NCBI GenBank assembly: GCA_012474735.1
Contig: GCA_012474735.1_4085.1
Length of the DNA stretch: 64,000 bases
Strand: one strand, 5' to 3'
Source of the DNA: a phage
A program made the position numbers and the translations under genes. The notes under the pieces were generated by a model. It had not been told where the DNA came from. It worked only from the letters and a program-made list of their open reading frames with translations, and did not search any database. Of the stretch, positions 13,409 through 26,534 are shown in pieces. Numbering within the stretch: the stretch's first letter is position 1; every line of letters begins with the position of its first letter.

Positions 13409-13456
13409 CGCTGTTACTCCTGATAGTGTTTACCTGATATAAAGTATTATACGCCT

Positions 13457-13705
13457 TTATTGCTTAGTGTCCAGTACTTTTAAAACATAATCAAAGACAC
13501 CACGCACATCATTGATCATCGCCTGGCGGTTAGCAGGTAACGCATCAGGATCGCCACTATCCCAGGCATTGATAAAACTCCCCAAATCATGATAGATTTT
13601 ATTCTGTAAGCCGATTAACTGTAATTCTTTTTCTTCAAGCTCTTTGATGCGGTCGATTAAATCACTCATTAGATAATCCTCAGTACTTAACTGTAAGATC
13701 CGCAA
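13457..13705 (-). CDS. hypothetical protein (82 aa)
   Basis: ORF; overlaps upstream gene end. Confidence 0.5.
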   Translation of the reverse strand: MRILQLSTEDYLMSDLIDRIKELEEKELQLIGLQNKIYHDLGSFINAWDSGDPDALPANRQAMINDVRGVFDYVLKVLDTKQ

Positions 13706-13971
13706 CGGTCGCAGTAGTGCCCGTCATCGTCATCGTCAACGAATTGACCGACGAAATGATCTACTTTCGCTTTCAGGTTATTATAATCGTTTTCTACTTC
13801 CTTTAAACGCTTCTGGTAGTATTCCAGGGCTTGTAAATACGCCGCCTCAGCAGTTTTCTCCCGCATAGCTAAATTCATTCCACGCGATTCATCATACAGC
13901 CAAAAACCATCGGTGCACTGGCTAATAGATAATGACTTGCTTAGTACTGTATAGTTAATTACTTTACCCAT
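13687..13971 (-). CDS. hypothetical protein (94 aa)
   Basis: ORF; promoter unit 13990..14050. Confidence 0.55.
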   Translation of the reverse strand: MGKVINYTVLSKSLSISQCTDGFWLYDESRGMNLAMREKTAEAAYLQALEYYQKRLKEVENDYNNLKAKVDHFVGQFVDDDDDGHYCDRCGSYS

Positions 13972-13989
13972 TAGATAATCCTCAGTAAA

Positions 13990-14050
13990 GGCGGGAACTA
14001 TTCCCCGCCTCGATATAAAGTATTATACGTTAATCTAACTACAATGCAAG
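13990..14050 (-). promoter_or_regulatory. sigma70-like early promoter plus leader hairpin
   Basis: rc CTTGCA 14045..14050, TATAAT 14022..14027; hairpin GGCGGGAA-N4-TCCCCGCC. Confidence 0.6.
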
Positions 14051-14063
14051 TACTTTTTAAATT

Positions 14064-14330
14064 TTATAATCCTTTTACTGCATCAGGTGCGACTACTCCA
14101 TCAATGTATTGAACATCGTTTTCAACTTCACGGGCGGCATCATTCAGCAGATCAAAATTAAATTCCATTTCTTCCAGATCATCGAAATCAGGCTCATAAC
14201 CATTAATTGTTGAATAAGTCCAAGTACCTTTTTCATAAGTTACGACACTTACATCAGGGAAGAAATCTTGCACATGATCCATCGCATCCCGAACCAATTG
14301 ATGTGCAGTTGTGATATTTAAAGTTTTCAT
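14064..14330 (-). CDS. hypothetical acidic protein (88 aa)
   Basis: ORF; promoter unit 14351..14411. Confidence 0.55.
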   Translation of the reverse strand: MKTLNITTAHQLVRDAMDHVQDFFPDVSVVTYEKGTWTYSTINGYEPDFDDLEEMEFNFDLLNDAAREVENDVQYIDGVVAPDAVKGL

Positions 14331-14350
14331 TTTGTTGCCCTTTTAGTGTG

Positions 14351-14411
14351 AGCGGGGAACCACTCCCCGCCTCGATGTAAAGTATTATACGCTTTTAAAC
14401 TTAGTTTGCAA
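14351..14411 (-). promoter_or_regulatory. sigma70-like early promoter plus leader hairpin
   Basis: rc CTTGCA 14406..14411, TATAAT 14383..14388; hairpin GCGGGGAA-N3-CTCCCCGC. Confidence 0.6.
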
Positions 14412-14423
14412 GTACTTTTTAAA

Positions 14424-15035
14424 TTAATATGCGATTGATTCTACTACGCCATCAATAACATTGAATTGATATTCGTTACCCTCAATCAGTGCCGTAATGT
14501 TTTCAGTAGTGAATTGATCCTCATATGCATTCTCTAAATCACGGTACAACTTGCGGGATAATTCACGAATAGTTTCAGTGAGTAGTTCCTCAAGCTCATT
14601 AACTAACGTTTCTTGTTTTGCGGTTAAATCAGTGTAAGCCGATTCAATGTACCCGCTTACAGTATTCTCATGCGAGTAGTGGGAGTGAGAACGCTTTACA
14701 CTCATCGCCAAATCATCTTCATTCAGCAAGTGACGGATTGAGCGATACTTAGTTAATGCTCTTACCTTGCGTAAAAACTTCACTGCGTCAACGTGGTCAG
14801 TACTGATTGATGCACCGTCACCCTGGGACCAAAAACCACTGAATTGTATTTCAGCGTCATTAATGCCATATTCCGGTAGTACTGTTTCTTTATAGTATTC
14901 AATTTCACTTTCAGAAAAATAATTGTCGTTTGAGTTTTTTTCACGTTCCCGAACCAGTTCGATAGCCGCCGCTTGTTGTTCTGCGTTCAGTTCAGAAAAA
15001 GCCATAACGAAAGTAGTAGTAGTGATAGTTTTCAT
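14424..15035 (-). CDS. hypothetical protein (203 aa)
   Basis: ORF behind tandem promoter/leader module. Confidence 0.55.
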   Translation of the reverse strand: MKTITTTTFVMAFSELNAEQQAAAIELVREREKNSNDNYFSESEIEYYKETVLPEYGINDAEIQFSGFWSQGDGASISTDHVDAVKFLRKVRALTKYRSIRHLLNEDDLAMSVKRSHSHYSHENTVSGYIESAYTDLTAKQETLVNELEELLTETIRELSRKLYRDLENAYEDQFTTENITALIEGNEYQFNVIDGVVESIAY

Positions 15036-15067
15036 TTTGTAACCCTCATTCAGTAGTTTATGTAAGT

Positions 15068-15214
15068 ATTATACGCTTTTAAAAACATTTGTCAAACTAT
15101 TTTATCAGGGGAGTTTTTCGTGTGCCTTACTCCTGGGCTACTTAACGGGGAGTTACTTATTTCGTTCCCCGTCCTGATGTAAAACATTATACGCCTTTAA
15201 ACATAGTTTGCAAG
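15068..15214 (-). promoter_or_regulatory. tandem promoters flanking structured leader (copy 2)
   Basis: near-identical to 4555..4699; P-a 15068..15095, leader 15103..15173, P-b 15186..15214. Confidence 0.55.
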
Positions 15215-15257
15215 TACTTTTTAAAAATAGTTTTCAGTACTGAATAGTAAAAAGGTA

Positions 15258-15286
15258 TTGACAGCACTATCCAGTACTGGCATAAT
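15258..15286 (+). promoter_or_regulatory. plus-strand promoter-like element
   Basis: TTGACA-N17-CATAAT; convergent with minus promoter 15392..15420. Confidence 0.4.
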
Positions 15287-15391
15287 ATACCCCATGACAA
15301 CAGCTAACCCACCGGGTGCACAATTGTAACTGTACTAAACTAATTTTTCTATAGATACACTTCCGCACCCTATGGGCCACGGCTTATCTGC

Positions 15392-15420
15392 CAATGAATA
15401 CATTATGCCAGTACTGACAT
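15392..15420 (-). promoter_or_regulatory. minus-strand promoter-like element
   Basis: rc TTGACT-N17-CATAAT; mirror of 15258..15286. Confidence 0.4.
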
Positions 15421-15460
15421 TTTAAGTCAATACCGGCAATTGTAAATATTTGTAAACTAC

Positions 15461-15691
15461 TTATACTGCAATCGCGTCCAGGCTATAATAATAATAAGTG
15501 CCGTATTGGTGTACTTTATTACCTTTTATTTCAGTACTGAATGAATCCGAACGGTTTGCATATGATGTTAATTTAAAGTACTTTGATTTGCTGATACGTT
15601 GCCATACACCACAGATCCGCTGTAAGTAAGTAGTTTTATTCGTGGTAGTATCTTTTACGGTTTTAACTTCAGTCATATACATATTAGTCAT
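15461..15691 (-). CDS. hypothetical protein (76 aa)
   Basis: ORF; promoter unit 15713..15772. Confidence 0.5.
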   Translation of the reverse strand: MTNMYMTEVKTVKDTTTNKTTYLQRICGVWQRISKSKYFKLTSYANRSDSFSTEIKGNKVHQYGTYYYYSLDAIAV

Positions 15692-15712
15692 TTTTATTAC
15701 TCCAGGTTATAG

Positions 15713-15772
15713 GCGGGAAGAGTTCCCGCTCTCGATGTAAAACATTATACGCCTTTAAACATAGTTTGCAAG
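15713..15772 (-). promoter_or_regulatory. sigma70-like early promoter plus leader hairpin
   Basis: rc CTTGCA 15767..15772, TATAAT 15744..15749; hairpin GCGGGAA-GAG-TTCCCGC. Confidence 0.6.
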
Positions 15773-15778
15773 TACTTT

Positions 15779-16044
15779 TTATTCAAGTACTGCAATCTTT
15801 TTAGTACGGTACACGGTCACGCGGTTGCCCTTTCGGTCGAGCTTTATTTCTACCACTCGACGCGATACACTATCGGGACTTTTTAAGGCCGCTAACCAGT
15901 ACTGTAATGATCTGGCGGTACTACGCTTTACAATGGCCCAACGTTTACCACGTTCCGATTGTACGCCCATATCTTTAAACGTTGCCCCGTCCTGGCGTGC
16001 GGCGATCCGAGCTTGTTCACGCGTCGCAAAATACTTAATATTCA
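15779..16044 (-). CDS. hypothetical protein, paralog of 3348..3743
   Basis: trimmed to MNIKYFATRE start; shared motifs. Confidence 0.6.
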
Positions 16045-16133
16045 TGCTGTTGCCCTTATCGTTGGTGTATGAATAAAACACTATTATAAAGTACTATCCC
16101 CGTGCAATAGTACTTTAAATAAATTCTATTCTA

Positions 16134-16373
16134 TTACATTCCAACCATTGCCGCACGGATCGCAGTAGTGCTATATTTGAATCCGTCCGGTGTTTTATCT
16201 TGTCCAGTCTGTTCTAAAAATAACATCATATGACGGGCCGCATCATTGCGATTAGTGCTATCGTTAATAAAGTCCTGGGCCAACCGGTATAATGATTCAT
16301 CGTTATTAATCCAAAGGCTTACATTCCAATGAGTTTTGTTTTTGTGACCTAAGAACATTTTTGATTTAGCCAT
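16134..16373 (-). CDS. hypothetical protein (79 aa)
   Basis: ORF; promoter unit 16394..16452. Confidence 0.55.
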   Translation of the reverse strand: MAKSKMFLGHKNKTHWNVSLWINNDESLYRLAQDFINDSTNRNDAARHMMLFLEQTGQDKTPDGFKYSTTAIRAAMVGM

Positions 16374-16393
16374 TTTTTAATCCTCTTATATAG

Positions 16394-16452
16394 TGGGGAA
16401 CTATTCCCCACCTGATAGAAAGTATTATACTTGTTTTAACTTAGTATGCAAG
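16394..16452 (-). promoter_or_regulatory. sigma70-like early promoter plus leader hairpin
   Basis: rc CTTGCA 16447..16452, TATAAT 16424..16429; hairpin GTGGGGAA-N3-TTCCCCAC. Confidence 0.6.
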
Positions 16453-16465
16453 TACTTTATTAAAC

Positions 16466-16828
16466 TTATTTGTAAATTTTGCCACTGTCAGCCCATACCA
16501 GGAAACGATGCATATTATCCCATGCATCTTGTTTTAAATTTAAACCGTGCAATTCCTCAGTAGTTGCCATCCCTGGTACTGGCTTACTACACACCGCGAA
16601 ATTTTCGCCCATGTACTGATAAACCATCGTTAAATCATTTGAGATCATTATATGGATCATTGAATCAAGCATCAAAGTAGCGGCGTATTGTTCACGCTTA
16701 AGCGGCAACATTGCAATAAGTTCCCGATAAGCTGCAATGTGAATTTTTACAGTTTCAGCCGGAAGACCTTTCATCTCTTCGCGGAAGTTTACCAGGTTAA
16801 GCATGATTTTAGTGATTTGAGTCGCCAT
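16466..16828 (-). CDS. hypothetical protein (120 aa)
   Basis: trimmed to MATQITKIM start. Confidence 0.5.
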   Translation of the reverse strand: MATQITKIMLNLVNFREEMKGLPAETVKIHIAAYRELIAMLPLKREQYAATLMLDSMIHIMISNDLTMVYQYMGENFAVCSKPVPGMATTEELHGLNLKQDAWDNMHRFLVWADSGKIYK

Positions 16829-16852
16829 CGTTTTAATCTCTCTTAATGTGTA

Positions 16853-16912
16853 GCGGGAAGTGTTCCCGCTCTCGATGTAAAACATTATACGCTTTTATCA
16901 GTACGGTGCAAG
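16853..16912 (-). promoter_or_regulatory. sigma70-like early promoter plus leader hairpin
   Basis: rc CTTGCA 16907..16912, TATAAT 16884..16889; hairpin GCGGGAA-GTG-TTCCCGC. Confidence 0.6.
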
Positions 16913-17191
16913 TACTTTCTACAAATACTTTTAAAATAGTTTTCTTTCTATATAGGGGAACTATTATTCAGTACTGCAACCATCCAGGGGAACTATCTTT
17001 CTATATAGGAGTACTATTATTCAGTACTGAATCAATCAACCAAATCACTACTACACCCCGTAAAACGGCCTCAGACGCATTCTAACGCATTAATACACCC
17101 AAGCTATACATTTGCACCATTCCAATCATTCCAGGGCTTTACAGGCCGTTTAAACGCGTTAAATTATTTTCAATTATTTTGTTTTTAGCTA

Positions 17192-17219
17192 TTGACTCAG
17201 TACTAAAAAAGCGTATAAT
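17192..17219 (+). promoter_or_regulatory. plus-strand promoter-like element
   Basis: TTGACT-N16-TATAAT followed by TACTACATAGACG...GATCCGTC, similar to region after 12810. Confidence 0.4.
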
Positions 17220-17406
17220 TACTACATAGACGCGAGAAAGCGGATACCCCAGGGGGTGGGAAGATCCGTCCAAAATTCAAGATATAAAAAAAGGATACAC
17301 TCCCGCACCCTAGCAGGTTAACGCACTTTCTCAGTACTGAATTATAGTACCATAGTCCGGCCCAGGATGGCAAGCAAATTAATTAAAACTTTTTTCATCC
17401 AGGGTA

Positions 17407-17434
17407 TTGCTTTATTTTTCCAGTACTGTATAAT
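17407..17434 (+). promoter_or_regulatory. plus-strand promoter-like element
   Basis: TTGCTT-N16-TATAAT followed by CCCACCGGGTGCA motif. Confidence 0.35.
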
Positions 17435-18779
17435 AGTTCCATCAAGTCGAGAAAGACTCAAGCCCACCGGGTGCATAGTTACGCCCAAAATTCAGTACTG
17501 AAAAAATTTTTAAAAATATCCGTCCAGGCCGTTGACATTGCCCCCAGTTTATAAGATAATGATTCCAGATTCAGAAAAATCTAACTCCAGATACTGCGGG
17601 GAAACTATCCCCACGCGGTAGGGGAACTATTGGAAAAAACAAAATAAAATTTTGATTTAGCCGTCTATACTTCCAGACGTGTAACCATCTAGCCGTTTAG
17701 CCGTCTAGATGGATAGCCATCTTTACTTCCAGACTTCTGGAGGGCTAGACATATCTACGCCCAAAATCCATCCAGGGTAACTACGCCCAAAATCCGTCAG
17801 TACTATACCATAGATCTATCTTTTGAAAGGGAGTATTCAGTACTGCCATCATAGCCCTCACTATGTTACCCTAGGAGGATGAAGACTATCATGTAGTACT
17901 GAATACTGTTAGAGGGAATCCACCAGCTTGTGCTGGTGGCATAATGCTTTAGATTAAAATCAGTACTGACACCATTCTGTTAATATCAGTACTGTTATTA
18001 CGATTTTCATATGAGGTTCAAAAAGATGTACCACCACAGGAGGAACTATCTTTTCTGTACTGTCTCACGACAGGAGGTAGAGTAAATGAATTGTTCGCAG
18101 CAACTCATCTCTCTATGTAGAACATTATACAGTACTGAATCATAATGTCAATAGCTTTCTTTCATTATTCAGTACTGATATTCTTGAGAACTACCCGACT
18201 ACAAACATCATTATATCCCACAAATCATAAACGTCCCAACGTAAATTTCAACTTTCGAAGATCCAACTTTTATTTCATAGGTACTCCAAAATTTTTAGGA
18301 TCGAGATTTAGGATGGAGTACTAACCAACTTTTTGCTGGAGCCTCAAGGGGTAATTGAATTTTACCCCGAAGGGTAAAGGGGTAATTGAAATTAAGGTGA
18401 AAGTAATAATTCAGTACTAATCATTGCGTGATTACTTTTGATTACATTTGATGTAATTTGAAAAATGGAAAAGGAGCTTGGAAACTACAAAGTACGGCAG
18501 ACTTCCTCTGCCTACTTAGTGGCATATCAGTACTGAATCCTTCCCTAGCATTCTTGAGCAATCTTGTCTATACTAATCAGTACTGAATCATATATAATCA
18601 TTCTGTGATTCTACGGTGCTCATATAAATGTTTATATATGATTACTTATGACTACCTATGATTACGGGGTTTAGCCTGGGGAGAATCCTAGTGATCGCAT
18701 TTGTCCAGGCTGAATTTTAACAATTCGCCTGTACATAAAGGTTGTTCACTAGGAGCTTCCCCTGTCTACTTGTGTTTAA

Positions 18780-18971
18780 TTACTTCCTATATATAAGCAT
18801 TAAGATATAGTAGTACTGATTATACTGTACATTCTCTTTAATATTATAAGGGTCTATAGCAATCTCGGTACATCTGTTAAATGCATATCTATTAAATGCC
18901 AGTGGAATTATAGATCTAATCCATACTTGTTCATTTTCTTTTAGTTTACTTATATAGAAGTTTTTATACAT
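18780..18971 (-). CDS. small paralog family protein (63 aa)
   Basis: array family: N-term MxKxFY, C-term LIYRK. Confidence 0.55.
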   Translation of the reverse strand: MYKNFYISKLKENEQVWIRSIIPLAFNRYAFNRCTEIAIDPYNIKENVQYNQYYYILMLIYRK

Positions 18972-18986
18972 AGTATTCTCTATTAA

Positions 18987-19169
18987 TTAATATGATAGTA
19001 CTAGTGTTAGTACTGAGCACAATTGTTCTTTGTAGTTCTTAGGGTATATAGAATCTTTTATGCACTCATTGAAGTGCCATAGGTATAATCTTGGGTCGCA
19101 TTCTTTATATATTCTTACGGGGACGAATGTTAGTTTTCGTATATAGAATTCTTTATGTTCTTTATTCAT
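18987..19169 (-). CDS. small paralog family protein (60 aa)
   Basis: MNKEHKEFY start; array member. Confidence 0.55.
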   Translation of the reverse strand: MNKEHKEFYIRKLTFVPVRIYKECDPRLYLWHFNECIKDSIYPKNYKEQLCSVLTLVLSY

Positions 19170-19170
19170 A

Positions 19171-19359
19171 TTAGTACCTGAATATAAGTAGGATTATGTT
19201 ATAGTACTGGTTAGTACTGCAATGATTCTCTATACATCGATTAACAGTTATGGAATAGCTATATCTGGCGTAAGCATTATCCAGCGGGATTTTACATTGA
19301 GCACTTAGAGAAAGTACAGTAGGTAGTGTATTCAAATAGAAGTCTTTGTAATTATTCAT
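19171..19359 (-). CDS. small paralog family protein (62 aa)
   Basis: MNNYKDFYLNTLP ... LLIFRY. Confidence 0.6.
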   Translation of the reverse strand: MNNYKDFYLNTLPTVLSLSAQCKIPLDNAYARYSYSITVNRCIENHCSTNQYYNIILLIFRY

Positions 19360-19561
19360 ACAGGAATAGTATACCTATGATACCTGAGTACAGGTTAGTA
19401 CTGTTACCATCTTCGTTTGCGTTTAAAGTCATTTGAATACAATTATTGTAGCATACTCTGCCGAAAAATGTATTAGTACTTAAAGGTGGAGTATTCCTTA
19501 GAAACATTTGTTCTGAGGGGCTTATGTATTTGGAGTAGAATTCTTTATGTTCTTTATTCAT
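19352..19561 (-). CDS. small paralog family protein (69 aa)
   Basis: MNKEHKEFY ... ILFLYE. Confidence 0.6.
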   Translation of the reverse strand: MNKEHKEFYSKYISPSEQMFLRNTPPLSTNTFFGRVCYNNCIQMTLNANEDGNSTNLYSGIIGILFLYE

Positions 19562-19566
19562 ATTAG

Positions 19567-19752
19567 TTAGTGTCTGTATATAAGTAATAGTAAGAATACG
19601 TACTGCACATCTTCATCTTTAGTATTGAGTACTGTACGTATTGCGTCATGGAACAAGAATATAGTACTTGGGTCATGAAAATTTAAAGGGGTTCTGGGTA
19701 CGGCATGTTTGTAGTTCCCTTTAACAAATTGTGTGTAGTATTCTCTATGCAT
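19567..19752 (-). CDS. small paralog family protein (61 aa)
   Basis: MHREYYTQF ... LLLIYRH. Confidence 0.6.
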   Translation of the reverse strand: MHREYYTQFVKGNYKHAVPRTPLNFHDPSTIFLFHDAIRTVLNTKDEDVQYVFLLLLIYRH

Positions 19753-19753
19753 A

Positions 19754-19939
19754 TTAGTACCTATATATTAGGGCGAGAATGTAGTACAATTCATATGGAA
19801 TGTAATTTGGGGTGATCGCACACTGTGTATGGTAAATGAATTGTTCGGTATTTTTCTTATCCTTGATATCTATTGGGATTTGTGGTATAAGCATTTGGGA
19901 GTTTAGATCGAGGTGGCTTAAGTAGAATTCTTTATGCAT
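19754..19939 (-). CDS. small paralog family protein (61 aa)
   Basis: MHKEFYLSHL ... LALIYRY. Confidence 0.6.
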   Translation of the reverse strand: MHKEFYLSHLDLNSQMLIPQIPIDIKDKKNTEQFIYHTQCAITPNYIPYELYYILALIYRY

Positions 19940-19948
19940 ATTGTTCTC

Positions 19949-20137
19949 TTAGAATACGAAAGCTAGGTACAGGGTATGATACAGTACTCGATGATAGCTG
20001 TCAAAATCTAGTATACATGCTTTAGTGCACATAGTAAAGTACACTTTCTCGTTTTGTGCATTGATACCGCGAGGTTTATCTAATAGATTAGTTCTGAGGT
20101 ACATTGGGAAATATTTTGTGTAGTATTCTTTATGCAT
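19949..20137 (-). CDS. small paralog family protein (62 aa)
   Basis: trimmed to MHKEYYTKYF start; LYLAFVF end. Confidence 0.55.
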   Translation of the reverse strand: MHKEYYTKYFPMYLRTNLLDKPRGINAQNEKVYFTMCTKACILDFDSYHRVLYHTLYLAFVF

Positions 20138-20138
20138 A

Positions 20139-20321
20139 TTAGTACCTGAATATAAGTAGGATAGTGTTATATAGCTGGTCATAACTACTACTATTTTCTA
20201 TACTTCGTTCTATGCAGTTATTGAATCCCAGTACTGCCAAATCGTTATCCATAGGGACTTTATATCTGGCGTAGTGTTCAAAAATGCTGGGGAGAAATTG
20301 TGTGTAGTATTCTTTGTGCAT
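20139..20321 (-). CDS. small paralog family protein (60 aa)
   Basis: MHKEYYTQFLP ... LLIFRY. Confidence 0.6.
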   Translation of the reverse strand: MHKEYYTQFLPSIFEHYARYKVPMDNDLAVLGFNNCIERSIENSSSYDQLYNTILLIFRY

Positions 20322-20322
20322 A

Positions 20323-20508
20323 TTAGTACCTATATATTAGTAAAAGGATGTGATACAGTACTCGATTATAGTCTTCAATATATATCGAGGATTTAGTGCA
20401 CTGAATGAAGTAGTCTTTTTCGTAGTTTTTTTCTATACCCAATGCAACGTTTGGTACAAGGTGTTGGAGATACATTGGGAGTTTCTCTATGTAGTATTCT
20501 TTATACAT
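20323..20508 (-). CDS. small paralog family protein (61 aa)
   Basis: MYKEYYIEKLP ... LLLIYRY. Confidence 0.6.
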   Translation of the reverse strand: MYKEYYIEKLPMYLQHLVPNVALGIEKNYEKDYFIQCTKSSIYIEDYNRVLYHILLLIYRY

Positions 20509-20517
20509 ATATTATCC

Positions 20518-20718
20518 TTAGTACTGGAACGCAAGGTACAGGGTGTGGTACAGTTGTACTTGATAATTGTTTTCATTAGCTTCTTCATTAAGTACTTGTT
20601 CAGTACATGTACGGAAGTAATCAGCTTCATATATACAGTCAATACCGCGAGGTTCATCTTCTAATAGATTTCCTTGTAGAAACTTTGGTAGTTCTTTTAT
20701 GTAGAATTCTTTATACAT
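20518..20718 (-). CDS. small paralog family protein (66 aa)
   Basis: trimmed to MYKEFYIKELP start; LYLAFQY end. Confidence 0.55.
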   Translation of the reverse strand: MYKEFYIKELPKFLQGNLLEDEPRGIDCIYEADYFRTCTEQVLNEEANENNYQVQLYHTLYLAFQY

Positions 20719-21382
20719 AGTTTGTAATATACGTAATGAGGTGATGCATTTTCTTATTAGTACTGATAATTTCCTGTACATGTTTTGTCAGATTGTACGC
20801 GTTTTTATAGAGTGCTGGATTATCGATTACAGTACTGTACATGAATAGTTCTTCCTCGGATAATTCTTTGCCTTGTAATTCTTTGAGGAATTGTAGTACT
20901 GTATCAGTTTCTTCTGTACGTTGTGCTTGCCAGAAGTGCATATTCTCGTGTACTTTTTCTGCATCAGTAGAGTATATGCCACCCATTTGGAATTGTGCTG
21001 TATTGACATCGTGGGAGGTGTTACAATTCCCGAAGAAGTATGTATTCCCGAAGTATAGCATTAAAGTGCACGGGGTATTATCCAACTGCATATTGATGAT
21101 GAAGGATGCGTTCTTTAGTACCTTTGTGCTCGTATTAGTACTCAATACTTTTAAATCAGTATTATAGATATTCATATAATGAACAGCTATATTATTTTTC
21201 TTCATGTACAATTCAAGGTTCTTTGATACGTTAACTCCATTTGTACTGGATTTTTCCTTTTTATTTCGTTTCTTTAGTACATTCGGGTGATACGTATATG
21301 CAGATGTAACTGATTCTGCCTGAATACTATTGAGGTACTTAAAGTGCTTAAGGTATTGTTTGCTGTGTGCATTAAGTTTCAT
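20711..21382 (-). CDS. hypothetical protein (223 aa) embedded in small-gene array
   Basis: ORF; no recognisable domain. Confidence 0.5.
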   Translation of the reverse strand: MKLNAHSKQYLKHFKYLNSIQAESVTSAYTYHPNVLKKRNKKEKSSTNGVNVSKNLELYMKKNNIAVHYMNIYNTDLKVLSTNTSTKVLKNASFIINMQLDNTPCTLMLYFGNTYFFGNCNTSHDVNTAQFQMGGIYSTDAEKVHENMHFWQAQRTEETDTVLQFLKELQGKELSEEELFMYSTVIDNPALYKNAYNLTKHVQEIISTNKKMHHLITYITNYV

Positions 21383-21392
21383 TTGGTTTCCT

Positions 21393-21572
21393 TTATATAG
21401 ATGCCAGGGCGAGGATTTCCCTGTAGGGATTATCTTGTGTTAGTACAGCATAAATGCAGCTATTGAGATTAATATTTTTAGTACTTTTTGTTCCTAGTTT
21501 GTAGTACTTCACGAAGGTGTCGTACATGAAACGGTCTTTTATGGTTATACGTTCTCTATAGAATTGTTGCAT
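21393..21572 (-). CDS. small paralog family protein (59 aa)
   Basis: found by eye below cutoff; MQQFYRERIT start. Confidence 0.4.
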   Translation of the reverse strand: MQQFYRERITIKDRFMYDTFVKYYKLGTKSTKNINLNSCIYAVLTQDNPYREILALASI

Positions 21573-21580
21573 AGTATTCC

Positions 21581-21763
21581 TTAAATAGCGATTAGTTTCA
21601 TTACTTCTCTGTATGTGTACTTTTCGTTTTGTGCATCTCTTGTGACGACATATAGGAAGGTGTGTTTATCTTTTTTGTTCCCGCAATTGTAGAAAATATT
21701 GAACTTATTGAAGTTGAATCTTTCGGCGTGTTGTAGTTTAGTTAAATAGAATTCTATGTTCAT
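21581..21763 (-). CDS. small paralog family protein (60 aa)
   Basis: MNIEFYLTKL ... MKLIAI. Confidence 0.55.
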   Translation of the reverse strand: MNIEFYLTKLQHAERFNFNKFNIFYNCGNKKDKHTFLYVVTRDAQNEKYTYREVMKLIAI

Positions 21764-21771
21764 TTTCTTCC

Positions 21772-21957
21772 TTACATTTCAATAAGTTTCAGTACTGCTC
21801 GGTACGTGTACTTAGTTGTCAGTGCTTCTTTAATAGAAATACAGAAGTAATGTTGTTTGTCTCTTATACTGCCGCGTTTGTAGTACCACACATGGGAGTT
21901 GTGACTGTACTTGTCTCTGTCGGATAGTTGTTGGTAGTAGTAGCTTATATGATTCAT
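21772..21957 (-). CDS. small paralog family protein (61 aa)
   Basis: MNHISYYYQQL ... LKLIEM. Confidence 0.55.
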   Translation of the reverse strand: MNHISYYYQQLSDRDKYSHNSHVWYYKRGSIRDKQHYFCISIKEALTTKYTYRAVLKLIEM

Positions 21958-22004
21958 TGTAATTAGCCTTACTATGTTAAAGTACTCGGTCCCTGGTGTA
22001 CCTT

Positions 22005-22199
22005 TTAGAACTTAAAGATGAGGTTCAGGATAGAGCGGTACTTAGTTGCAGGGAACGTATGTTCTATTGCATAACGTGTCACCATCCTGAAATCGTAATT
22101 ATAATACAGATTATCCTTTCTCATAGGTGGTGCTAAAGAGAATGATAGCTGTTCTTGTTTGGGTAGTTTACTACAATAGAAATCTTTATGATTATTCAT
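22005..22199 (-). CDS. small paralog family protein (64 aa)
   Basis: MNNHKDFYCSKLP ... LNLIFKF. Confidence 0.6.
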   Translation of the reverse strand: MNNHKDFYCSKLPKQEQLSFSLAPPMRKDNLYYNYDFRMVTRYAIEHTFPATKYRSILNLIFKF

Positions 22200-22401
22200 A
22201 GAAATATATTAGTCCTATTAAACCTGAGTACATAATATTTTTGTTATTACATTCGATTGCTTCTATAGTACTACGTATACAATTATTAAAGCAATCTCTG
22301 GCGTGTGGTGTATCTATACTTAAAGGTGATACACTCCTTAGAAACAATTGTTCTTCGTTGCTAAGGTATTTGGTGTAGAATTCTTTATGTTCAGTATTCA
22401 T
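22192..22401 (-). CDS. small paralog family protein (69 aa)
   Basis: MNTEHKEFYTKYL ... LIYFYE. Confidence 0.6.
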   Translation of the reverse strand: MNTEHKEFYTKYLSNEEQLFLRSVSPLSIDTPHARDCFNNCIRSTIEAIECNNKNIMYSGLIGLIYFYE

Positions 22402-22402
22402 A

Positions 22403-22606
22403 TTAGTACTCGATTAAAAGGGCAAGGATATAATAGTATTGCATACTTTCTGCCCCTTGTAAAGCATTTCTTATGATATTACTCCTGTACGAGTTCAGGA
22501 GTTTAGGACAACGTTTGTAGTGTATAAAAGTATTTTGTGTATACAGTAGGCTTTCTCGTAGACCTTTTGTTGGTAGTGCATCGATGTAGTACTGTTCAAT
22601 GTTCAT
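22403..22606 (-). CDS. small paralog family protein (67 aa)
   Basis: MNIEQYYIDALP ... LALLIEY. Confidence 0.55.
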   Translation of the reverse strand: MNIEQYYIDALPTKGLRESLLYTQNTFIHYKRCPKLLNSYRSNIIRNALQGAESMQYYYILALLIEY

Positions 22607-22830
22607 ATAGATAGCAGTACTAAGATTTTTGATAATTGTTTATTGCTATCCCCGCAGATGTTGCTGTGTAAAATACTCACAATGAGGGTATCAATTGCAT
22701 TGTTCATCATAAGGGTGCATCCTGGACTATTATAATTTTTTAGCTCAATTAGCCACGAACTATCCGCGAGAAATTCCCCGTACTCTAGTTCATTTAGAGT
22801 ATTGAGGTAGTACTTAAGAGTATTTGTCAT
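22603..22830 (-). CDS. small paralog family protein (75 aa)
   Basis: MTNTLKYYLNTL ... array member. Confidence 0.5.
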   Translation of the reverse strand: MTNTLKYYLNTLNELEYGEFLADSSWLIELKNYNSPGCTLMMNNAIDTLIVSILHSNICGDSNKQLSKILVLLSI

Positions 22831-22932
22831 GTGTAGTTCTCCTTATATTCCTTCTATAGTACACCAGTACTGAAAGGATGTCAAGGGTTTTCTTTATGGG
22901 GTAAATATGATATAATGAATAAGGAGGGAAAT

Positions 22933-24135
22933 ATGTTACCTTTTGGAAGAATGGTTAAGTACGCAAATATTGCACCAGGTCCAGAACCTGTAGAGTTCTC
23001 AGATGTTTTACAACAACATTATACAAACTGTATGTATCTACATAACCCAACTAATACTTTATATGGTTATGGTAGTAATAACATGTATCAATTTGGTCTT
23101 GGGAATTCAGCAGCAGTTTCGTCATTTACAGTACTTGCAAGGAACTGTGCAGCCTTTTGGCTTGGTGTTCAAGGTTCGTTGATGATTGATTTGGATAATA
23201 AAATATACTACACTGGGTCTGTGGCTGCATTTTCTGATTATGGAGATGCAACACCTGTTAATGGTTATTTGACAACATGGACTGATGTTACTGTTGCATT
23301 TAATAAAATAGGTGTTATGGCTAATATGATCAAGAGTGTATATATAGGTGAAAGTACTAGAATATTATTAACCGATGGTAGAGTAATTGCGTGTGGAAGA
23401 AATACCAATGGTGAATGTGGCTCTGGTAATAAAAATTCCATCCCTACACTCACAGTTATGACTAATATGGGTGAAGTTACACATATGGCATGTTCATTAC
23501 AAGGAACGCACTATATCAAATCAAATAAAGATGCATGGTTTTGTGGTAAGGATAACTTTGGTGAAAGTGGATGTGGTGGTAGTTCTGTTGTATATTTGAA
23601 CAAATTCGTGATTAGTAATGTAGAACATATTAGTACTACATACGATGTTACTTGGTGGTTTACTACTGGTGGGTCTGTATATTATAGCGGGGCTAACAGT
23701 ACTGGACAAGCGGGTAATGGTACGACTACATCGGTAAATCAGCTAACACCAATTAGGAACACATCGGTCACGGTTGATGTAAGTAAGTACAGTACTTTTA
23801 TTTGTCCAAGTAATATGGGAAATGCATCAATTGGTGCACCTATGGCACAATACGCACCATATGTTAGAAGTAGTGGTGCTAACTCATATGGTCAAGAAGG
23901 TAATGGAACTAATACATTAGTTAGAACTTGGAATATTTTTAATCTTAGTGCAATAAGTGGTGGTTATGAAAATGTTCTTATGGCATCTAAAGATTGGAGC
24001 AGAACCATAATAATTACTAAAGATTATAAATTATATGCATGTGGTGGCTGGAATGGAAATGGTGGTAGATTGCCAGATGGCACTTATAGTATTACTACAC
24101 TAACATTAATGCCAACGCAGTTATGGCAACAATAG
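22933..24135 (+). CDS. RCC1-like beta-propeller repeat protein, array member 1
   Basis: start MLPFGRMVKYANIAPG after AAGGAGGG; repeated G-x-N-x-x-G-Q-x-G-x-G blades. Confidence 0.7.
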   Translation: MLPFGRMVKYANIAPGPEPVEFSDVLQQHYTNCMYLHNPTNTLYGYGSNNMYQFGLGNSAAVSSFTVLARNCAAFWLGVQGSLMIDLDNKIYYTGSVAAFSDYGDATPVNGYLTTWTDVTVAFNKIGVMANMIKSVYIGESTRILLTDGRVIACGRNTNGECGSGNKNSIPTLTVMTNMGEVTHMACSLQGTHYIKSNKDAWFCGKDNFGESGCGGSSVVYLNKFVISNVEHISTTYDVTWWFTTGGSVYYSGANSTGQAGNGTTTSVNQLTPIRNTSVTVDVSKYSTFICPSNMGNASIGAPMAQYAPYVRSSGANSYGQEGNGTNTLVRTWNIFNLSAISGGYENVLMASKDWSRTIIITKDYKLYACGGWNGNGGRLPDGTYSITTLTLMPTQLWQQ

Positions 24136-24143
24136 GAGGGAAT

Positions 24144-25253
24144 ATGTTACCTTTTGGAAGAATAATTAGGTATGGAAATATTGTCCCTGGTCCTAAAAAA
24201 ATAATTAAAGTTGGTGCTTCTACACAAGGTCAATTCTTATTGACTGATTCACATGATTTATATTACATAGGTAGAAATCAAGGTGGTGAATCTGGAAATG
24301 GTAATACCAACACGGTGTCTTCGTGGACATTAGTAAGTGCAGATGTTTCTAATTTTTTCGTGGGTGATCGTACACTTGTTATTATTAAAAATGATAATAC
24401 TATATGGACATCAGGTCAAACGTACTGGTTCTCATCTTCTACAACTACTTCTTACAGTACTGTATTAGTTGAAAGGACTAGTTGGTTTACCAATGCTATA
24501 CCAGTCAGTGAAATTGCTAATATTGTATGCACAAATGGTTTAATATTTGTACTTAGCACTAATTCAGTACTCTATGGTGCAGGAGATAATGGATATCGTG
24601 GTTCTTTGGGTATTGGTTCATCATCAATTTACACATTAACTCAATGTGCTACGAACGTTCGTAAAGTAATGACCAATGCGAATGATAGTATGTATCTTAC
24701 ATTAGATAATAAGCTATATAGTTCTGGATGGAATAGTAGTGGGCAGCATGGTACGGGGAACCAAACACAAATTAACACTTGGGGATTGCGTAGTTCTGGT
24801 GTAATCGATGCAGCCATTGGTGGTAATGCATTAAATTACTATAATGGTACATCATATTTCGTATGTGGTCAAACTCCAAACTTTCTTAGTTCAGGTACGA
24901 CTACATTCCGTGCAGTTCCTTTAAGTACTTTGCCTAATAGTTCTCCGTTGTTTATGACGAATTCACCTGCCTTAAATACTGCTACACAAATGGTAATTAC
25001 TAGTACATATCAGAAGGGTGTTGGGGCGAACCGTGGTTTGGGATTAAACAATTCTCAAACTGGTGCTATATATAGTGCTACCAATTTACAATTACCCGTT
25101 GAAGTTAGTGAGATTAGGGATGTTCTTTTTAGTGATGGTTTGACATCGATATTAACCAAAAATGGAGACGTGTATAGTACTGGATCGTATTACGCCATTC
25201 CAGGTGCAATCGAGGATGTTGCAGTCTTTACTAAAATTGATTTACCAAAATAA
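24144..25253 (+). CDS. RCC1-like repeat protein, array member 2
   Basis: MLPFGRIIRYGNIVPG; 8 nt after member 1 stop; RCC1-like motifs. Confidence 0.7.
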   Translation: MLPFGRIIRYGNIVPGPKKIIKVGASTQGQFLLTDSHDLYYIGRNQGGESGNGNTNTVSSWTLVSADVSNFFVGDRTLVIIKNDNTIWTSGQTYWFSSSTTTSYSTVLVERTSWFTNAIPVSEIANIVCTNGLIFVLSTNSVLYGAGDNGYRGSLGIGSSSIYTLTQCATNVRKVMTNANDSMYLTLDNKLYSSGWNSSGQHGTGNQTQINTWGLRSSGVIDAAIGGNALNYYNGTSYFVCGQTPNFLSSGTTTFRAVPLSTLPNSSPLFMTNSPALNTATQMVITSTYQKGVGANRGLGLNNSQTGAIYSATNLQLPVEVSEIRDVLFSDGLTSILTKNGDVYSTGSYYAIPGAIEDVAVFTKIDLPK

Positions 25254-25259
25254 CATAAT

Positions 25260-25278
25260 GCCAGTACTCTGTACTGGC
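25260..25278 (+). terminator. intrinsic terminator of array cassette
   Basis: GCCAGTAC-TCT-GTACTGGC then TTTCTTATTT; followed by AT-rich TATAA(T/C) box and AAAGGAGGG SD. Confidence 0.65.
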
Positions 25279-25322
25279 TTTCTTATTTGTATTAAATATA
25301 GTATAACAAATAAAGGAGGGAA

Positions 25323-26463
25323 TATGTTACCTTTTGCAAGAATGGTTAAGTACGGGAATATCGCACCTGAACTGATTCTACCTAAAAACAGGTTACAATG
25401 TTCTGCTGATGCCAAATTTTATTTACACACAAATGGTAATCTATATTGGTTTGGTTCTTCAGCATATGGACAAAGTGGTAATGGTTCATTGGACTCTTCA
25501 ACTGAATGGACTCTTGTCAACTCAAATGTTACACGATATTGGGGTGGGGTACAAGGAACAATTGCTATAAAGAAAGATGGTACTATTTGGTACACTGGTA
25601 GACGTACTGTTATTCCAATACTATCTTCAAACACTAACGGCGTTTGGGTTGATATAACACAGAACTTTACTGATTTCGGTGTCAGTGCAGATGATATTGA
25701 TAGTGTTGTGATATCTTCGTGTATGCGTGTATTTTTAAAAAATGGAAAGTGGTTCTACTGTGGTGCTGGTACTGGTGGTGTTTTTGGGAATGGATCAACT
25801 TCAAGCGTTTCACGATTCACCTATAGTACAATAGAAAATGTTATCAGTGCTGGTTGTGCAATATATAGTACTGGATTAGTACTAAATGATGGTTCATATT
25901 GGTATGCAGGTAGAACGTTTGTATCAGGAACGACGACACAAAACTTGCTCACATTTACACAAGATACTTCGATTAGTAATGCAATTAAAGCAGTCAATAC
26001 AAATGAAACTTCTTATATATTTCTTAATGATGGTAATGTTAAAGTTGCATCTATTAACGACTATGGACAAGCAGGTACAGGAAATAGGTCAGTAGCCCCA
26101 ATGAGTACATTAATTCCAAATTTATCATTCCAAGGAGAAGTGGAGTTGGTGGGTGAGCTTGGGACAAACCTTACCGGACCATCCTGTATAATTAATAATA
26201 ATAATAAGTTATTTTCATGTGGCCTTAATTCAAATGGTCAATGTGGTATTGGTACAACTGATATGTATATAACATCATTCGCTGAAATGGATCTTACTGC
26301 ATTAGAAGGTAGTAATCTTAGTAGTTTTTGTAAGAGCTATTCTTATACGATGTTAGTTGACGAATATAATAATTTATACACATGTGGTGTACCCAATCTT
26401 ACTGGAATGTCTTCAACTACTGTACCAACAAGGGTTCCTGATTCACTTCTACCGTGGAAATAA
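25323..26463 (+). CDS. RCC1-like repeat protein, array member 3
   Basis: MLPFARMVKYGNIAPE; RCC1-like motifs. Confidence 0.7.
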
Positions 26464-26469
26464 TATAAT

Positions 26470-26488
26470 GCCAGTACACTGTACTGGC
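26470..26488 (+). terminator. intrinsic terminator of array cassette
   Basis: GCCAGTAC-ACT-GTACTGGC plus T-rich tail. Confidence 0.65.
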
Positions 26489-26534
26489 TTTCTTATTTGT
26501 ATTAAATATAGTATAATGAATAAAGGAGGGAAAT

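What the first reader, a model, noticed from the sequence alone, without database searches (positions are those of the whole stretch)
18780..22830. Array of 18 small paralogous proteins with conserved N- and C-termini
Seventeen 59-75 aa minus-strand ORFs, mostly abutting or separated by a few bases, share an N-terminus M-x-(K/N)-E-(H/Y)-(K)-(E/D)-F-Y-x-x-x-L-P and a hydrophobic C-terminus Y-x-x-(I/V)-L-(L/A)-L-I-(F/Y)-R-Y, with variable middles; an 18th ORF of 223 aa with no family signature is embedded. The segment is more AT-rich than the early-gene block. Conserved ends with a variable core resemble a diversified effector or precursor family.
Basis: seen in the sequence. Interest (0 to 1): 0.8.

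Follow-up and report, generated by a model that had tools for sequence, protein, structure and literature searches.

The report
Tandem small-protein gene family, jumbo coliphage
A giant E. coli phage carries a back-to-back row of about 16 related genes for tiny helical proteins with a shared core and variable surfaces; the family is real and confined to this phage genus, but its function is unknown and such gene expansions are a known feature of large phages.

Summary
The window is an Asteriusvirus jumbo coliphage, 99.7% identical to PBECO4. At 18780-22830 the minus strand carries 17 tightly packed ORFs of 59-75 aa, plus one embedded 223-aa ORF.

Twelve ORFs form a robust family (phrog_11711, unknown function). 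Three more (21393-21957) are a divergent subgroup, one (22403-22606) is a probable member, and the first (22603-22830) is not shown to be homologous.

The genes look real:
- intact copies in 14 related loci, 14-21 per phage;
- ortholog dN/dS about 0.43;
- conserved residues encoded by different synonymous codons.

AlphaFold2 gives a confident small helical domain (pLDDT 91.6). The conserved N-terminus, mid-helix motif and C-terminal helix probably form its core. No PDB or viral structure resembles it.

A conserved sigma70-type promoter and Shine-Dalgarno site precede the array. It abuts the boundary of the roughly 21-kb direct terminal repeat.

The family occurs only in Asteriusvirus and there are no expression or functional data. 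My best inference is an early-expressed, accordion-like family of soluble binders aimed at host factors or defences. The precursor reading is not supported: the HExxH motif in the 223-aa ORF is not conserved. This is a new member of a known kind, of moderate interest.

The parts
22856..22884 (-). Sigma70-type promoter-like site, TTGACA-17 nt-TACTAT, with the palindrome CAGTACTG (22865-22872) in its spacer. It lies 26 nt upstream of the first array ATG, and an AAGGAG Shine-Dalgarno follows at about 22838-22843.
   Evidence: Promoter scan. The -35, -10 and SD elements are conserved in 12 Asteriusvirus loci, including the divergent JNE01. Function is inferred, not shown.
22603..22830 (-). First gene of the operon, 75 aa (121Q gp249 orthologue). 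Same size class and position as the family, but homology is not demonstrated.
   Evidence: hhalign against the core family gives 1.8% probability; no phrog_11711 hit. It is conserved in 9 of the 10 loci clustered, and its orthologue dN/dS is 0.42.
22403..22606 (-). 67-aa probable divergent family member. It overlaps the previous gene by 4 nt.
   Evidence: hhalign 47.6%, E 1.9e-4, C-terminal helix region only; dN/dS 0.43.
22192..22401 (-). 69-aa core family member. It is the first gene of a duplicated two-gene unit.
   Evidence: HMM E 7e-25. It clusters at 60% identity or more with 19352-19561.
22005..22199 (-). 64-aa core family member, overlapping the previous gene by 8 nt.
   Evidence: phrog_11711 E 1.4e-25; HMM.
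21772..21957 (-). 61-aa member of the divergent subgroup (C-terminus ...YTYRxVLKLI..).
   Evidence: Subgroup versus core by hhalign: 90.5%, E 1.4e-6, 56 columns; dN/dS 0.16.
21581..21763 (-). 60-aa member of the divergent subgroup.
   Evidence: BLASTP links it to 21772-21957.
21393..21572 (-). 59-aa member of the divergent subgroup.
20711..21382 (-). Embedded 223-aa gene (phrog_29152, unknown function), not related to the small family. It always sits between the divergent subgroup and the core block.
   Evidence: phrog_29152 E 8.6e-156. hhalign against the family is negative. Homologues are confined to the same phage clade, apart from one 250-kb JGI contig whose origin I did not check, and HExxH is not conserved. 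The AF2 model is unusable at pLDDT 38. Its position is conserved in every locus.
20518..20718 (-). 66-aa core family member. Its true ATG lies inside the 87-aa ORF, and it overlaps the 223-aa gene by 8 nt.
20323..20508 (-). 61-aa core family member, and the sequence used for structure prediction.
   Evidence: phrog_11711 E 3e-25. AF2 pLDDT 91.6, pTM 0.75, with helices at 3-7, 12-15, 28-43 and 47-60.
20139..20321 (-). 60-aa core family member.
   Evidence: phrog_11711 E 2e-24.
19949..20137 (-). 62-aa core family member. Its true ATG lies inside the 77-aa ORF.
19754..19939 (-). 61-aa core family member.
   Evidence: phrog_11711 E 2.8e-12.
19567..19752 (-). 61-aa core family member.
   Evidence: HMM E 3e-22.
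19352..19561 (-). 69-aa core family member, the second copy of the duplicated two-gene unit.
   Evidence: phrog_11711 E 5e-9; same 60% identity cluster as 22192-22401.
19171..19359 (-). 62-aa core family member, overlapping the previous gene by 8 nt.
   Evidence: HMM E 5e-19.
18987..19169 (-). 60-aa core family member.
   Evidence: HMM E 1.4e-20.
18780..18971 (-). 63-aa core family member and last gene of the array.
   Evidence: phrog_11711 E 7e-24; orthologue dN/dS 0.08.
18496..18516 (-). Hairpin GGCAGAGGAAGTCTGCC, 264 nt downstream of the array. It coincides with the inner boundary of the direct terminal repeat, which is a physical genome end by homology.
   Evidence: Terminator-like hit. 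Position 1 of fEgEco12 aligns to window 18516 at 98% identity, and that phage's 20,993-bp terminal repeats were confirmed by PhageTerm and restriction digests (PMC13070987). A role as terminator is uncertain.

Best explanation
The segment is a genus-specific multigene family made by repeated tandem and segmental duplication.

**What it is.** About 15-16 paralogous genes, plus one unrelated 75-aa gene at the head and one embedded 223-aa gene, each encode a soluble helical protein of about 60 aa. In the predicted fold, the conserved N-terminal KE(F/Y)Y..L, the mid-helix F..C(I/T)...L and the C-terminal helix (Y/L)..(I/V)L.LI(F/Y).Y supply the hydrophobic core. The 20-residue stretch between them and the exposed helix faces vary freely.

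**How it is expressed (inferred).** The genes are read as one tightly packed, translationally coupled operon from a conserved host-sigma70-type promoter, so most likely early in infection. The array sits at the edge of the unique genome, next to the terminal-repeat boundary, in a region of small early-type genes.

**What it most likely does (inferred).** It is a repertoire of small protein binders on one scaffold, each paralogue contacting a different host protein or a different variant of one. That would serve host takeover or counter-defence, with copy number expanding and contracting between strains like a 'gene accordion'.

**Status of each step.**
- Shown: real coding genes, homology, purifying but relaxed selection, copy-number variation, genus restriction, conserved promoter motif.
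- Inferred: early expression, operon structure, binder function, nature of the targets.
For: **Coding and homology.**
- 17 intact ORFs on one strand.
- The core family is recovered at HMM E 1e-19 to 1e-27 and independently by phrog_11711. The divergent subgroup is linked by hhalign at 90.5%.
- Every family ORF found is intact and on one strand in 14 loci, at 14-21 copies per locus.
- Pooled orthologue dN/dS is 0.43 and substitutions favour the third codon position, 1205:1058:1700.
- Conserved residues use different synonymous codons in different paralogues, for example Y6 as TAC in 11 and TAT in 6, and L58 with four different Leu codons.

**Fold.**
- AF2 pLDDT 91.6 and pTM 0.75, all-helical.
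- Conserved positions follow an i, i+3/4, i+7 spacing on helices 3 and 4.
- No transmembrane segment: the highest 19-residue Kyte-Doolittle mean is 1.18. The pI ranges from 4.4 to 9.7, so surfaces differ.

**Diversification.**
- 26 subgroups at 60% identity; the two-gene unit 22192-22401/22005-22199 is paralogous to 19352-19561/19171-19359.
- Recent substitutions concentrate in columns 12-34.

**Expression signals.**
- TTGACA-17-TACTAT plus AAGGAG is conserved in 12 phages.
- Gene spacing is -8 to +15 nt, with SD-like AGG/AAGG before most starts.
- In the related phage CBB, RpoD-like promoters cluster in a region of short ORFs adjoining the terminal repeat, which its authors interpret as early host-takeover genes (PMC5259590).

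**Not structural.** None of these proteins is among the 62 virion proteins of phAPEC6, whereas the neighbouring RCC1-like proteins are (PMC7247149).
Against: - There is no expression, interaction or phenotype data for any member. I found no transcriptome or infected-cell proteome for any Asteriusvirus.
- No similarity to any known anti-defence, host-takeover or other characterised protein by sequence or fold.
- dN/dS of 0.43 shows relaxed purifying selection, not positive selection.
- The palindrome in the promoter spacer could mean regulated rather than simple early expression.
- Which genome end enters the cell first is unknown.
- The model is a monomer prediction from only 17 paralogues.
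Confidence: 0.45

Rival explanations
1. Near-neutral filler. The copies arose by tandem duplication and persist mainly because a large capsid with fixed terminal repeats tolerates or needs extra DNA, which is the 'ratchet' idea for jumbo-phage genome growth. The individual paralogues would have little or redundant function.
For: - Hua et al. 2017 propose tandem duplication as a route to jumbo genome growth and mention a tandem array in 121Q (PMC5646251).
- Copy number varies freely from 14 to 21.
- Some orthogroups have dN/dS near 1 or above (W9 1.05, W4 0.76, x4 2.67, on few substitutions).
Against: - Pooled dN/dS is 0.43 and several orthogroups are below 0.25.
- No pseudogenised copy was seen in 14 loci.
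- Paralogues are old and divergent (mean 29% column identity) yet keep the scaffold residues.
- The promoter and SD are conserved.
Confidence: 0.15
2. Partners of the adjacent RCC1-like beta-propeller virion proteins. The small proteins would act as chaperones, assembly factors, inhibitors or adaptors for the roughly 10 tandem RCC1-like paralogues transcribed divergently from the same intergenic region.
For: - The two expanded families are always adjacent and divergent.
- The RCC1-like proteins are virion components (PMC7247149).
Against: - The Yersinia phage fHe-Yen9-04 has an RCC1-like array near its genome end with no copy of the small family.
- The small genes carry an early-type sigma70 promoter, whereas the RCC1-like proteins are virion proteins and so presumably late.
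- I could not count paralogues across genomes to test co-variation.
Confidence: 0.08
3. Injected internal proteins of the T4 IPI/IPII/IPIII type. The conserved N-terminus would be a capsid-targeting sequence removed by the prohead protease, and the variable bodies would be delivered with the DNA to disarm host defences.
For: - A conserved N-terminal stretch of about 10 residues, M.KE(F/Y)Y, superficially recalls the T4 signal MKTYQEFIAE (from my own knowledge).
- The locus is hypervariable and polymorphic.
- The proteins are small.
Against: - No conserved (L/I)-x-E cleavage site at a fixed position.
- The C-terminus is equally conserved, and the N-terminus is modelled as part of the fold with pLDDT 89.
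- None was detected in the phAPEC6 virion proteome, although a 4.7-kDa protein was.
- The promoter is an early sigma70 type rather than late.
Confidence: 0.06
4. Small DNA-binding or regulatory proteins. For example, they might recognise the highly over-represented palindrome CAGTACTG or terminal-repeat boundary sequences, and so control early promoters or genome ends.
For: - CAGTACTG occurs 58 times against about 1 expected, lies in the spacer of 12 promoter-like sites including the array's own, and is dense next to the array.
- The family's median pI is 8.5.
Against: - Charge varies from strongly acidic to basic.
- There is no reason for about 16 diverged copies to recognise one invariant site.
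Confidence: 0.05
5. Precursor peptides (RiPP-like) or membrane-active small proteins, processed by the embedded 223-aa protein.
For: - Many similar small ORFs sit around one larger gene.
- The window copy of the 223-aa protein contains HENMH, an HExxH motif.
- The C-terminus is hydrophobic.
Against: - HExxH is not conserved in orthologues.
- The 223-aa protein matches no enzyme family.
- The small proteins are predicted as folded domains, with no leader/core asymmetry.
- The hydrophobic stretch is only about 11 residues and the highest 19-residue hydropathy is 1.18, so no transmembrane helix is expected.
Confidence: 0.03

Closest known systems
[quoted passage not shown]
   Same: Many small paralogous genes on one strand in a jumbo phage, arisen by tandem duplication, with function unknown. 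The 121Q remark may refer to this very region, since the small genes plus the adjacent RCC1-like genes total nearly 30.
   Different: This family has no zinc-ribbon or other recognisable domain. The earlier papers give no coordinates, family definition, structure or comparative analysis.
T4-type internal proteins (IPI, IPII, IPIII) and the hyperplastic regions of T4-like phages
   Same: Small, fast-evolving accessory proteins with a conserved N-terminal stretch, in a locus whose gene content differs between close relatives. Both belong to T4-related myoviruses.
   Different: There is no conserved protease site. The C-terminus is also conserved, none was found in virions, and the promoter is an early type. 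Membership is not supported.
Multigene families and 'gene accordions' of large eukaryotic DNA viruses (poxvirus K3L amplification, ASFV MGF110/360/505); this comparison rests on my own knowledge
   Same: Tandem paralogue arrays near the genome termini and terminal repeats, copy-number variation between strains, and a presumed host-interaction role.
   Different: The virus lineage and host are different. No adaptive amplification has been demonstrated here, and the proteins are far smaller.
Early region of short ORFs with RpoD-like promoters next to the terminal repeat in the related phage vB_PcaM_CBB (PMC5259590)
   Same: Related (Rak2-like) jumbo phage, with clusters of short hypothetical genes driven by sigma70-type promoters adjoining a terminal repeat of about 22 kb, interpreted as host-takeover genes.
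   Different: The CBB genes are not homologous to this family. An exhaustive HMM search found the family only in Asteriusvirus phages and metagenome contigs, and the four contigs I inspected carry the same Asteriusvirus gene order.
phrog_11711 (PHROGs v4, unknown function)
   Same: This is the same family. Six of the nine small proteins I submitted match it at E 5e-9 to 1e-25.
   Different: The PHROG covers only the core. The divergent subgroup (21393-21957) and the first two genes are outside it.

Membership tests
phrog_11711 / Asteriusvirus 60-aa family (defined here) | Significant match to the family profile | tested here: met
   Of the nine small proteins I submitted, six hit phrog_11711 at E 5e-9 to 1e-25. 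An HMM that omits the divergent members recovers the 12 core ORFs at E 1e-19 to 1e-27. The three ORFs at 21393-21957 are linked by hhalign at 90.5%.
phrog_11711 / Asteriusvirus 60-aa family (defined here) | Membership of the two leading genes (22403-22606 and 22603-22830) | tested here: inconclusive
   hhalign gives 47.6% (C-terminal half only) and 1.8% respectively. Neither has a PHROG hit.
Tandem multigene family / gene accordion | Same-strand contiguous paralogues with copy-number variation among close relatives | tested here: met
   14-21 copies in 14 loci, always between the RCC1-like array and the terminal-repeat boundary. There are 26 subgroups and one duplicated two-gene unit.
Tandem multigene family / gene accordion | Adaptive amplification under selection (positive selection or an experimentally induced copy change) | not testable with these tools
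   Only pooled dN/dS of 0.43 was obtained. Divergence is too low for site models, and no experimental evolution data exist.
T4-type internal proteins | N-terminal capsid-targeting sequence ending in a conserved (L/I)-x-E prohead-protease site | tested here: not met
   The alignment shows no conserved Glu at a fixed position after the N-terminal motif.
T4-type internal proteins | Presence in the mature virion | tested here: not met
   None is among the 62 proteins of the phAPEC6 virion proteome (PMC7247149 Table 1). This is literature evidence and limited by sensitivity.
RiPP precursor peptides | Leader/core layout with an adjacent modifying or processing enzyme | tested here: not met
   Both termini and a mid-helix are conserved, and the protein is predicted as a folded domain. 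The neighbouring 223-aa ORF matches no enzyme family and its HExxH motif is not conserved.
Zincin metalloprotease (for the 223-aa ORF) | Conserved HExxH zinc-binding motif | tested here: not met
   Orthologues read HDNMH, HDKMY and HNNMY. There is no Pfam, NCBIfam or PDB match.
Small membrane proteins (holin, superinfection exclusion or tail-anchored) | A hydrophobic segment long enough to span a membrane | tested here: not met
   The highest 19-residue Kyte-Doolittle mean is 1.18 or less in all window members, and GRAVY is mostly negative.
HTH / ribbon-helix-helix DNA-binding proteins | Structural similarity to a DNA-binding fold | tested here: not met
Known anti-defence proteins (anti-CRISPR, anti-restriction and similar) | Homology to a characterised inhibitor, or demonstrated inhibition of a defence system | not testable with these tools
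   No anti-defence library is available here. Pfam, PADLOC, NCBIfam and PDB give nothing. A functional assay is needed.

The most novel reading that the evidence does not exclude
The array is a phage-encoded 'binder library'. On this reading, an accordion-like repertoire of at least 26 subfamilies is built on a previously unseen 60-residue helical scaffold. Each paralogue neutralises a different host defence or host factor. The array sits next to the genome terminus under an early promoter so that it acts at the very start of infection. It would be a bacterial-virus counterpart of the terminal multigene families of poxviruses and ASFV.
Probability: 0.25. Interest if true: 0.7.

Novelty: new member of a known kind. 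Interest (0 to 1): 0.4.

Why it matters
If the paralogues prove to be specific inhibitors of host factors or defences, this one locus would supply more than 20 natural mini-binders on a common, compact scaffold.

- It would give a tractable case for studying how phages use gene duplication and loss to track host diversity.
- It would help explain host-range differences among jumbo coliphages that are being considered for therapy.
- It shows that most deposited Asteriusvirus annotations under-call these genes. PBECO4 annotates only five of the 17 small genes, plus the 223-aa ORF.

If the genes are near-neutral duplicates, the locus instead supports the idea that jumbo genomes grow by tandem duplication.

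Tried and rejected
**Metalloprotease idea for the 223-aa ORF.** Rejected, because HExxH is not conserved.

**Relation between the 223-aa ORF and the small family.** hhalign is negative.

**Structure of the 223-aa ORF.** AF2 reached only pLDDT 38, so I ran no fold search on it.

**Fold relatives of the small protein.**
- Foldseek against BFVD returns only family members.
- The afdb50 library was not available.

**Sequence relatives.**
- Pfam, NCBIfam, PADLOC and PDB sequence searches found nothing.
- An exhaustive HMM search of 1.84 billion representatives found 35 hits. All were 57-75 aa apart from one 3829-aa secreted repeat protein.
- That large protein matches only 22 columns around helix 3 (hhalign 74%), so I do not accept it as homologous.

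**DNA-level constraint on the C-terminus.** Five junctions read AGG TAC TAA T ATG, so the R-Y-stop codons could double as the next gene's ribosome-binding site. Synonymous variation in the last four codons (0.068) is no lower than elsewhere (0.044-0.089), so protein-level constraint is enough to explain the conservation.

**Repeat-spacer or purely DNA-level repeat array.** Rejected, because synonymous codons differ at conserved residues.

**Co-variation of RCC1-like and small-gene copy numbers.** The tblastn 'places' output did not give usable paralogue counts.

**tRNA and Rfam scans of the window.** Nothing found.

**Literature.** I found no transcriptome, infected-cell proteome or genetic data for any Asteriusvirus.

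Full report
**Identity of the window.** The region 18000-24000 is 99.7% identical to Escherichia phage PBECO4 (KC295538, 152926-158926). It matches 37 phage records in all, every one of them an Escherichia or Salmonella phage; those I opened are classified in, or closely match, the genus Asteriusvirus, the roughly 350-kb '121Q/PBECO4' jumbo myoviruses. PBECO4 annotates only five of the 17 small ORFs plus the 223-aa ORF. The 121Q, E9.1 and fEgEco12 records annotate almost all of them, always as 'hypothetical protein'.

**Check of the observation.** The ORF list shows 17 minus-strand ORFs of 59-75 aa between 18780 and 22830, plus a 223-aa ORF at 20711-21382.

- Two listed ORFs have N-terminal extensions that overlap the upstream gene. 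Their family-type start codons give 19949-20137 and 20518-20718.
- Gene spacing is -8 to +15 nt, with one 47-nt gap. Most starts are preceded by AGG, AAGG or AAGGAG.
- An alignment of the 17 gives an invariant Tyr6, a near-invariant Leu57 and a mean column identity of 29%.

**Is it one family?** Six of the nine small proteins I submitted match phrog_11711 (unknown function) at E 5e-9 to 1e-25. None matches Pfam.

- An HMM built without the divergent members recovers the 12 core ORFs at E 1e-19 to 1e-27. The other five score only E 0.005-0.9, but they still rank above almost every unrelated ORF of the window.
- Profile-profile comparison settles three of those five. The subgroup at 21393-21957 aligns to the core over its full length (hhalign 90.5%, E 1.4e-6).
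- The ORF at 22403-22606 aligns only over the C-terminal helix (47.6%). The first gene, 22603-22830, does not align (1.8%).
- So the array holds 15 demonstrable members, one probable member and one unrelated small gene, rather than 17 or 18.
- No other ORF of the 64-kb window belongs to the family.

**Are these real genes?** Four lines of evidence say yes.

- In ten loci (the window and nine relatives), every family ORF is intact and on the same strand. Copy number is 14-21, and the copies fall into 26 subgroups at 60% identity. Four further loci (fEgEco12, JNE01 and two metagenome contigs) have 14-21 copies.
- Pooled orthologue dN/dS is 0.43, ranging from 0.08 to about 1 between orthogroups with enough substitutions, and one small group (x4) reaches 2.67 on very few changes. 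Substitutions by codon position are 1205:1058:1700.
- Among the paralogues, conserved residues are encoded by different synonymous codons. Y6 is TAC in 11 and TAT in 6, and L58 uses four Leu codons. The conservation therefore acts on protein, not DNA, which excludes a DNA repeat-spacer reading.
- The coding strand has more C than G, unlike the window's other minus-strand genes. Amino-acid composition explains this: Tyr is 11% against 5.5% in other window proteins, Gly 1.9% against 7.4%, and Val, Ala and Asp are also low.

**Structure.** AlphaFold2, run on the 17-sequence alignment, models 20323-20508 with pLDDT 91.6 and pTM 0.75. The helices lie at residues 3-7, 12-15, 28-43 and 47-60.

- A weighted profile of 174 distinct family sequences puts the information-rich positions at K3, E4, F/Y5, Y6 and L10; at F34, C37, I/T38 and L/I42; and at Y/L51, I/V54, L55, L57, I58, F/Y59 and Y61.
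- Those positions sit on one face of each long helix plus the N-terminal turn. Residues 12-33 and 43-50 are variable.
This is an inference from the secondary structure and the spacing, because I could not inspect the coordinates.
- Within orthogroups, recent amino-acid changes concentrate in columns 12-34 (7.8 per column) against 2.9 per column in the C-terminal helix.
- There is no transmembrane segment, and pI ranges from 4.4 to 9.7.

**Distribution.** The word-indexed search found 41 close relatives. An exhaustive HMM search of 1.84 billion cluster representatives found only 35 at E 1e-3 or better, nearly all 57-75 aa.

- The most distant representative maps by tblastn only to Escherichia and Salmonella Asteriusvirus genomes.
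- Metagenome contigs carrying members show the same gene order: RCC1-like array, small genes, a 219-aa gene, more small genes, a gap of about 2 kb, then the small genes of the terminal repeat.
- The Yersinia phage fHe-Yen9-04, from a neighbouring genus, has an RCC1-like array near its genome end but no copy of the family.
- One 3829-aa secreted repeat protein scored E 1.7e-5. The similarity covers only 22 columns around helix 3, so I do not accept it as homologous.

**Context and expression signals.** The array is transcribed divergently from about 10 tandem RCC1-like genes on the plus strand (22915-35174). In phAPEC6 these are virion proteins, whereas no small array protein is among that phage's 62 virion proteins (PMC7247149).

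- The 84-nt divergent intergenic region contains TTGACA-17 nt-TACTAT (22884 to 22856) followed by AAGGAG. All of these elements are conserved in 12 phages.
- In the related phage CBB, RpoD-like promoters cluster in a block of short ORFs next to the terminal repeat, and its authors regard that block as the early host-takeover region (PMC5259590).
- Position 1 of fEgEco12 aligns to window 18516. That phage's 20,993-bp direct terminal repeats were confirmed by PhageTerm and restriction digests (PMC13070987). So window 1-18516 is terminal repeat, and the array is the last gene block of the unique region, ending 264 nt from the boundary.

**The embedded 223-aa gene.** It belongs to phrog_29152 (unknown function) and is as clade-restricted as the small family.

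- It always sits between the divergent subgroup and the core block.
- Its HENMH motif is not conserved in orthologues.
- It is unrelated to the small family.
- AlphaFold2 does not model it (pLDDT 38), and nothing is found in NCBIfam or PDB.

**Interpretation.** What is shown is a genus-specific, tandemly expanded family of small soluble helical proteins. It is under relaxed purifying selection, has a conserved core with variable surfaces, varies in copy number, and has a conserved sigma70-type promoter next to the terminal-repeat boundary.

What is inferred is early expression as a translationally coupled operon, and a role as diversified binders of host factors or defences. I put about 0.45 on that full mechanism and more than 0.9 on 'real paralogous protein-coding array'.

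The rivals are:
- near-neutral duplication filler (0.15);
- partners of the RCC1-like virion proteins (0.08);
- T4-style injected internal proteins (0.06);
- DNA-binding regulators (0.05);
- precursor or membrane peptides (0.03).

**Comparison with what is known.** Tandem lineage-specific expansions are a recognised feature of jumbo phages. Hua et al. 2017 mention, without giving details, a tandem array of very similar genes in 121Q, and the family already has a PHROG number. The finding is therefore a new, uncharacterised member of a known kind. What this analysis adds is a definition of the family and its subgroups, a confident fold with no known relative, the comparative dynamics, the regulatory context and the rejection of the precursor idea.

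**Scores.** Interest is 0.4. The most novel reading that the evidence still allows is a terminal 'binder library' analogous to the multigene families of poxviruses and ASFV, with probability about 0.25 and interest 0.7 if true.

Noticed in passing
whole window; densest at 16969-18585: The 8-bp palindrome CAGTACTG (core of TCAGTACTGA, which contains a ScaI site) occurs 58 times in 64 kb against 0.98 expected from shuffles. Twelve copies lie in the 1.6 kb just beyond the array. Twelve of the 58 sit in the spacer of sigma70-like promoters of the form TTGACA-N8/9-CAGTACTG-TATAAT, including the array's own promoter (22865-22872). The other 46 are not in a promoter context, and many lie inside genes. 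This looks like the site of a dimeric DNA-binding protein or a phage-specific promoter element.
   Followed up: partly
window 16886-18779: A stretch of about 1.9 kb has no ORF above 60 aa on either strand. It is unannotated in PBECO4 and 121Q, though some other records (E9.1, SD-15_S21, fEgEco12) call short ORFs there. No tRNA or Rfam match was found. It holds several near-consensus promoters on both strands (18151 to 18124 at 12/12; 17192-17219 and 17532-17560 at 11/12), a 14-pair hairpin (17994-17961) and many palindrome copies. The GC-skew sign changes here.
   Followed up: partly
window 18516 (minus strand): By homology, this is a physical genome end and the inner boundary of the direct terminal repeat. 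Position 1 of fEgEco12, whose 20,993-bp terminal repeats were confirmed experimentally, aligns here at 98% identity. The end sequence begins AGTAGGCAGAGGAAGTCTGCC, a hairpin. Window 1-18516 is therefore terminal-repeat DNA.
   Followed up: yes
window 22915-35174, plus strand: About 10 full-length tandem RCC1-like (beta-propeller) paralogues of 298-433 aa, plus fragments, are transcribed divergently from the small-gene array. In phAPEC6 at least eight such proteins are virion-associated. Their role in a phage is unknown.
   Followed up: partly
window 16134-16373, minus strand: A 79-aa gene, whose counterpart in a related contig is marked DUF7249, shares 83-90% nucleotide identity with genes in unrelated coliphage groups (Phapecoctavirus, Vequintavirinae and 'Campylobacter phage' records of about 146 kb). 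This suggests recent horizontal exchange of a small gene.
   Followed up: partly
window 1-18000: The terminal-repeat part of the window is packed with short genes; only five ORFs are 150 aa or longer. Its GC content is slightly higher (0.36-0.40) than the rest of the window (about 0.34). A few paralogue pairs occur, for example 3348-3752 with 15779-16045, and 3839-4195 with 10097-10420.
   Followed up: no
window 20711-21382, minus strand: The embedded 223-aa protein (phrog_29152) is confined to the same phage clade, apart from one 250-kb JGI contig whose origin I did not check, and keeps a fixed position in the array. AlphaFold2 cannot model it (pLDDT 38) and no library matches it, so it is an orphan whose link to the small family is unexplained.
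   Followed up: partly
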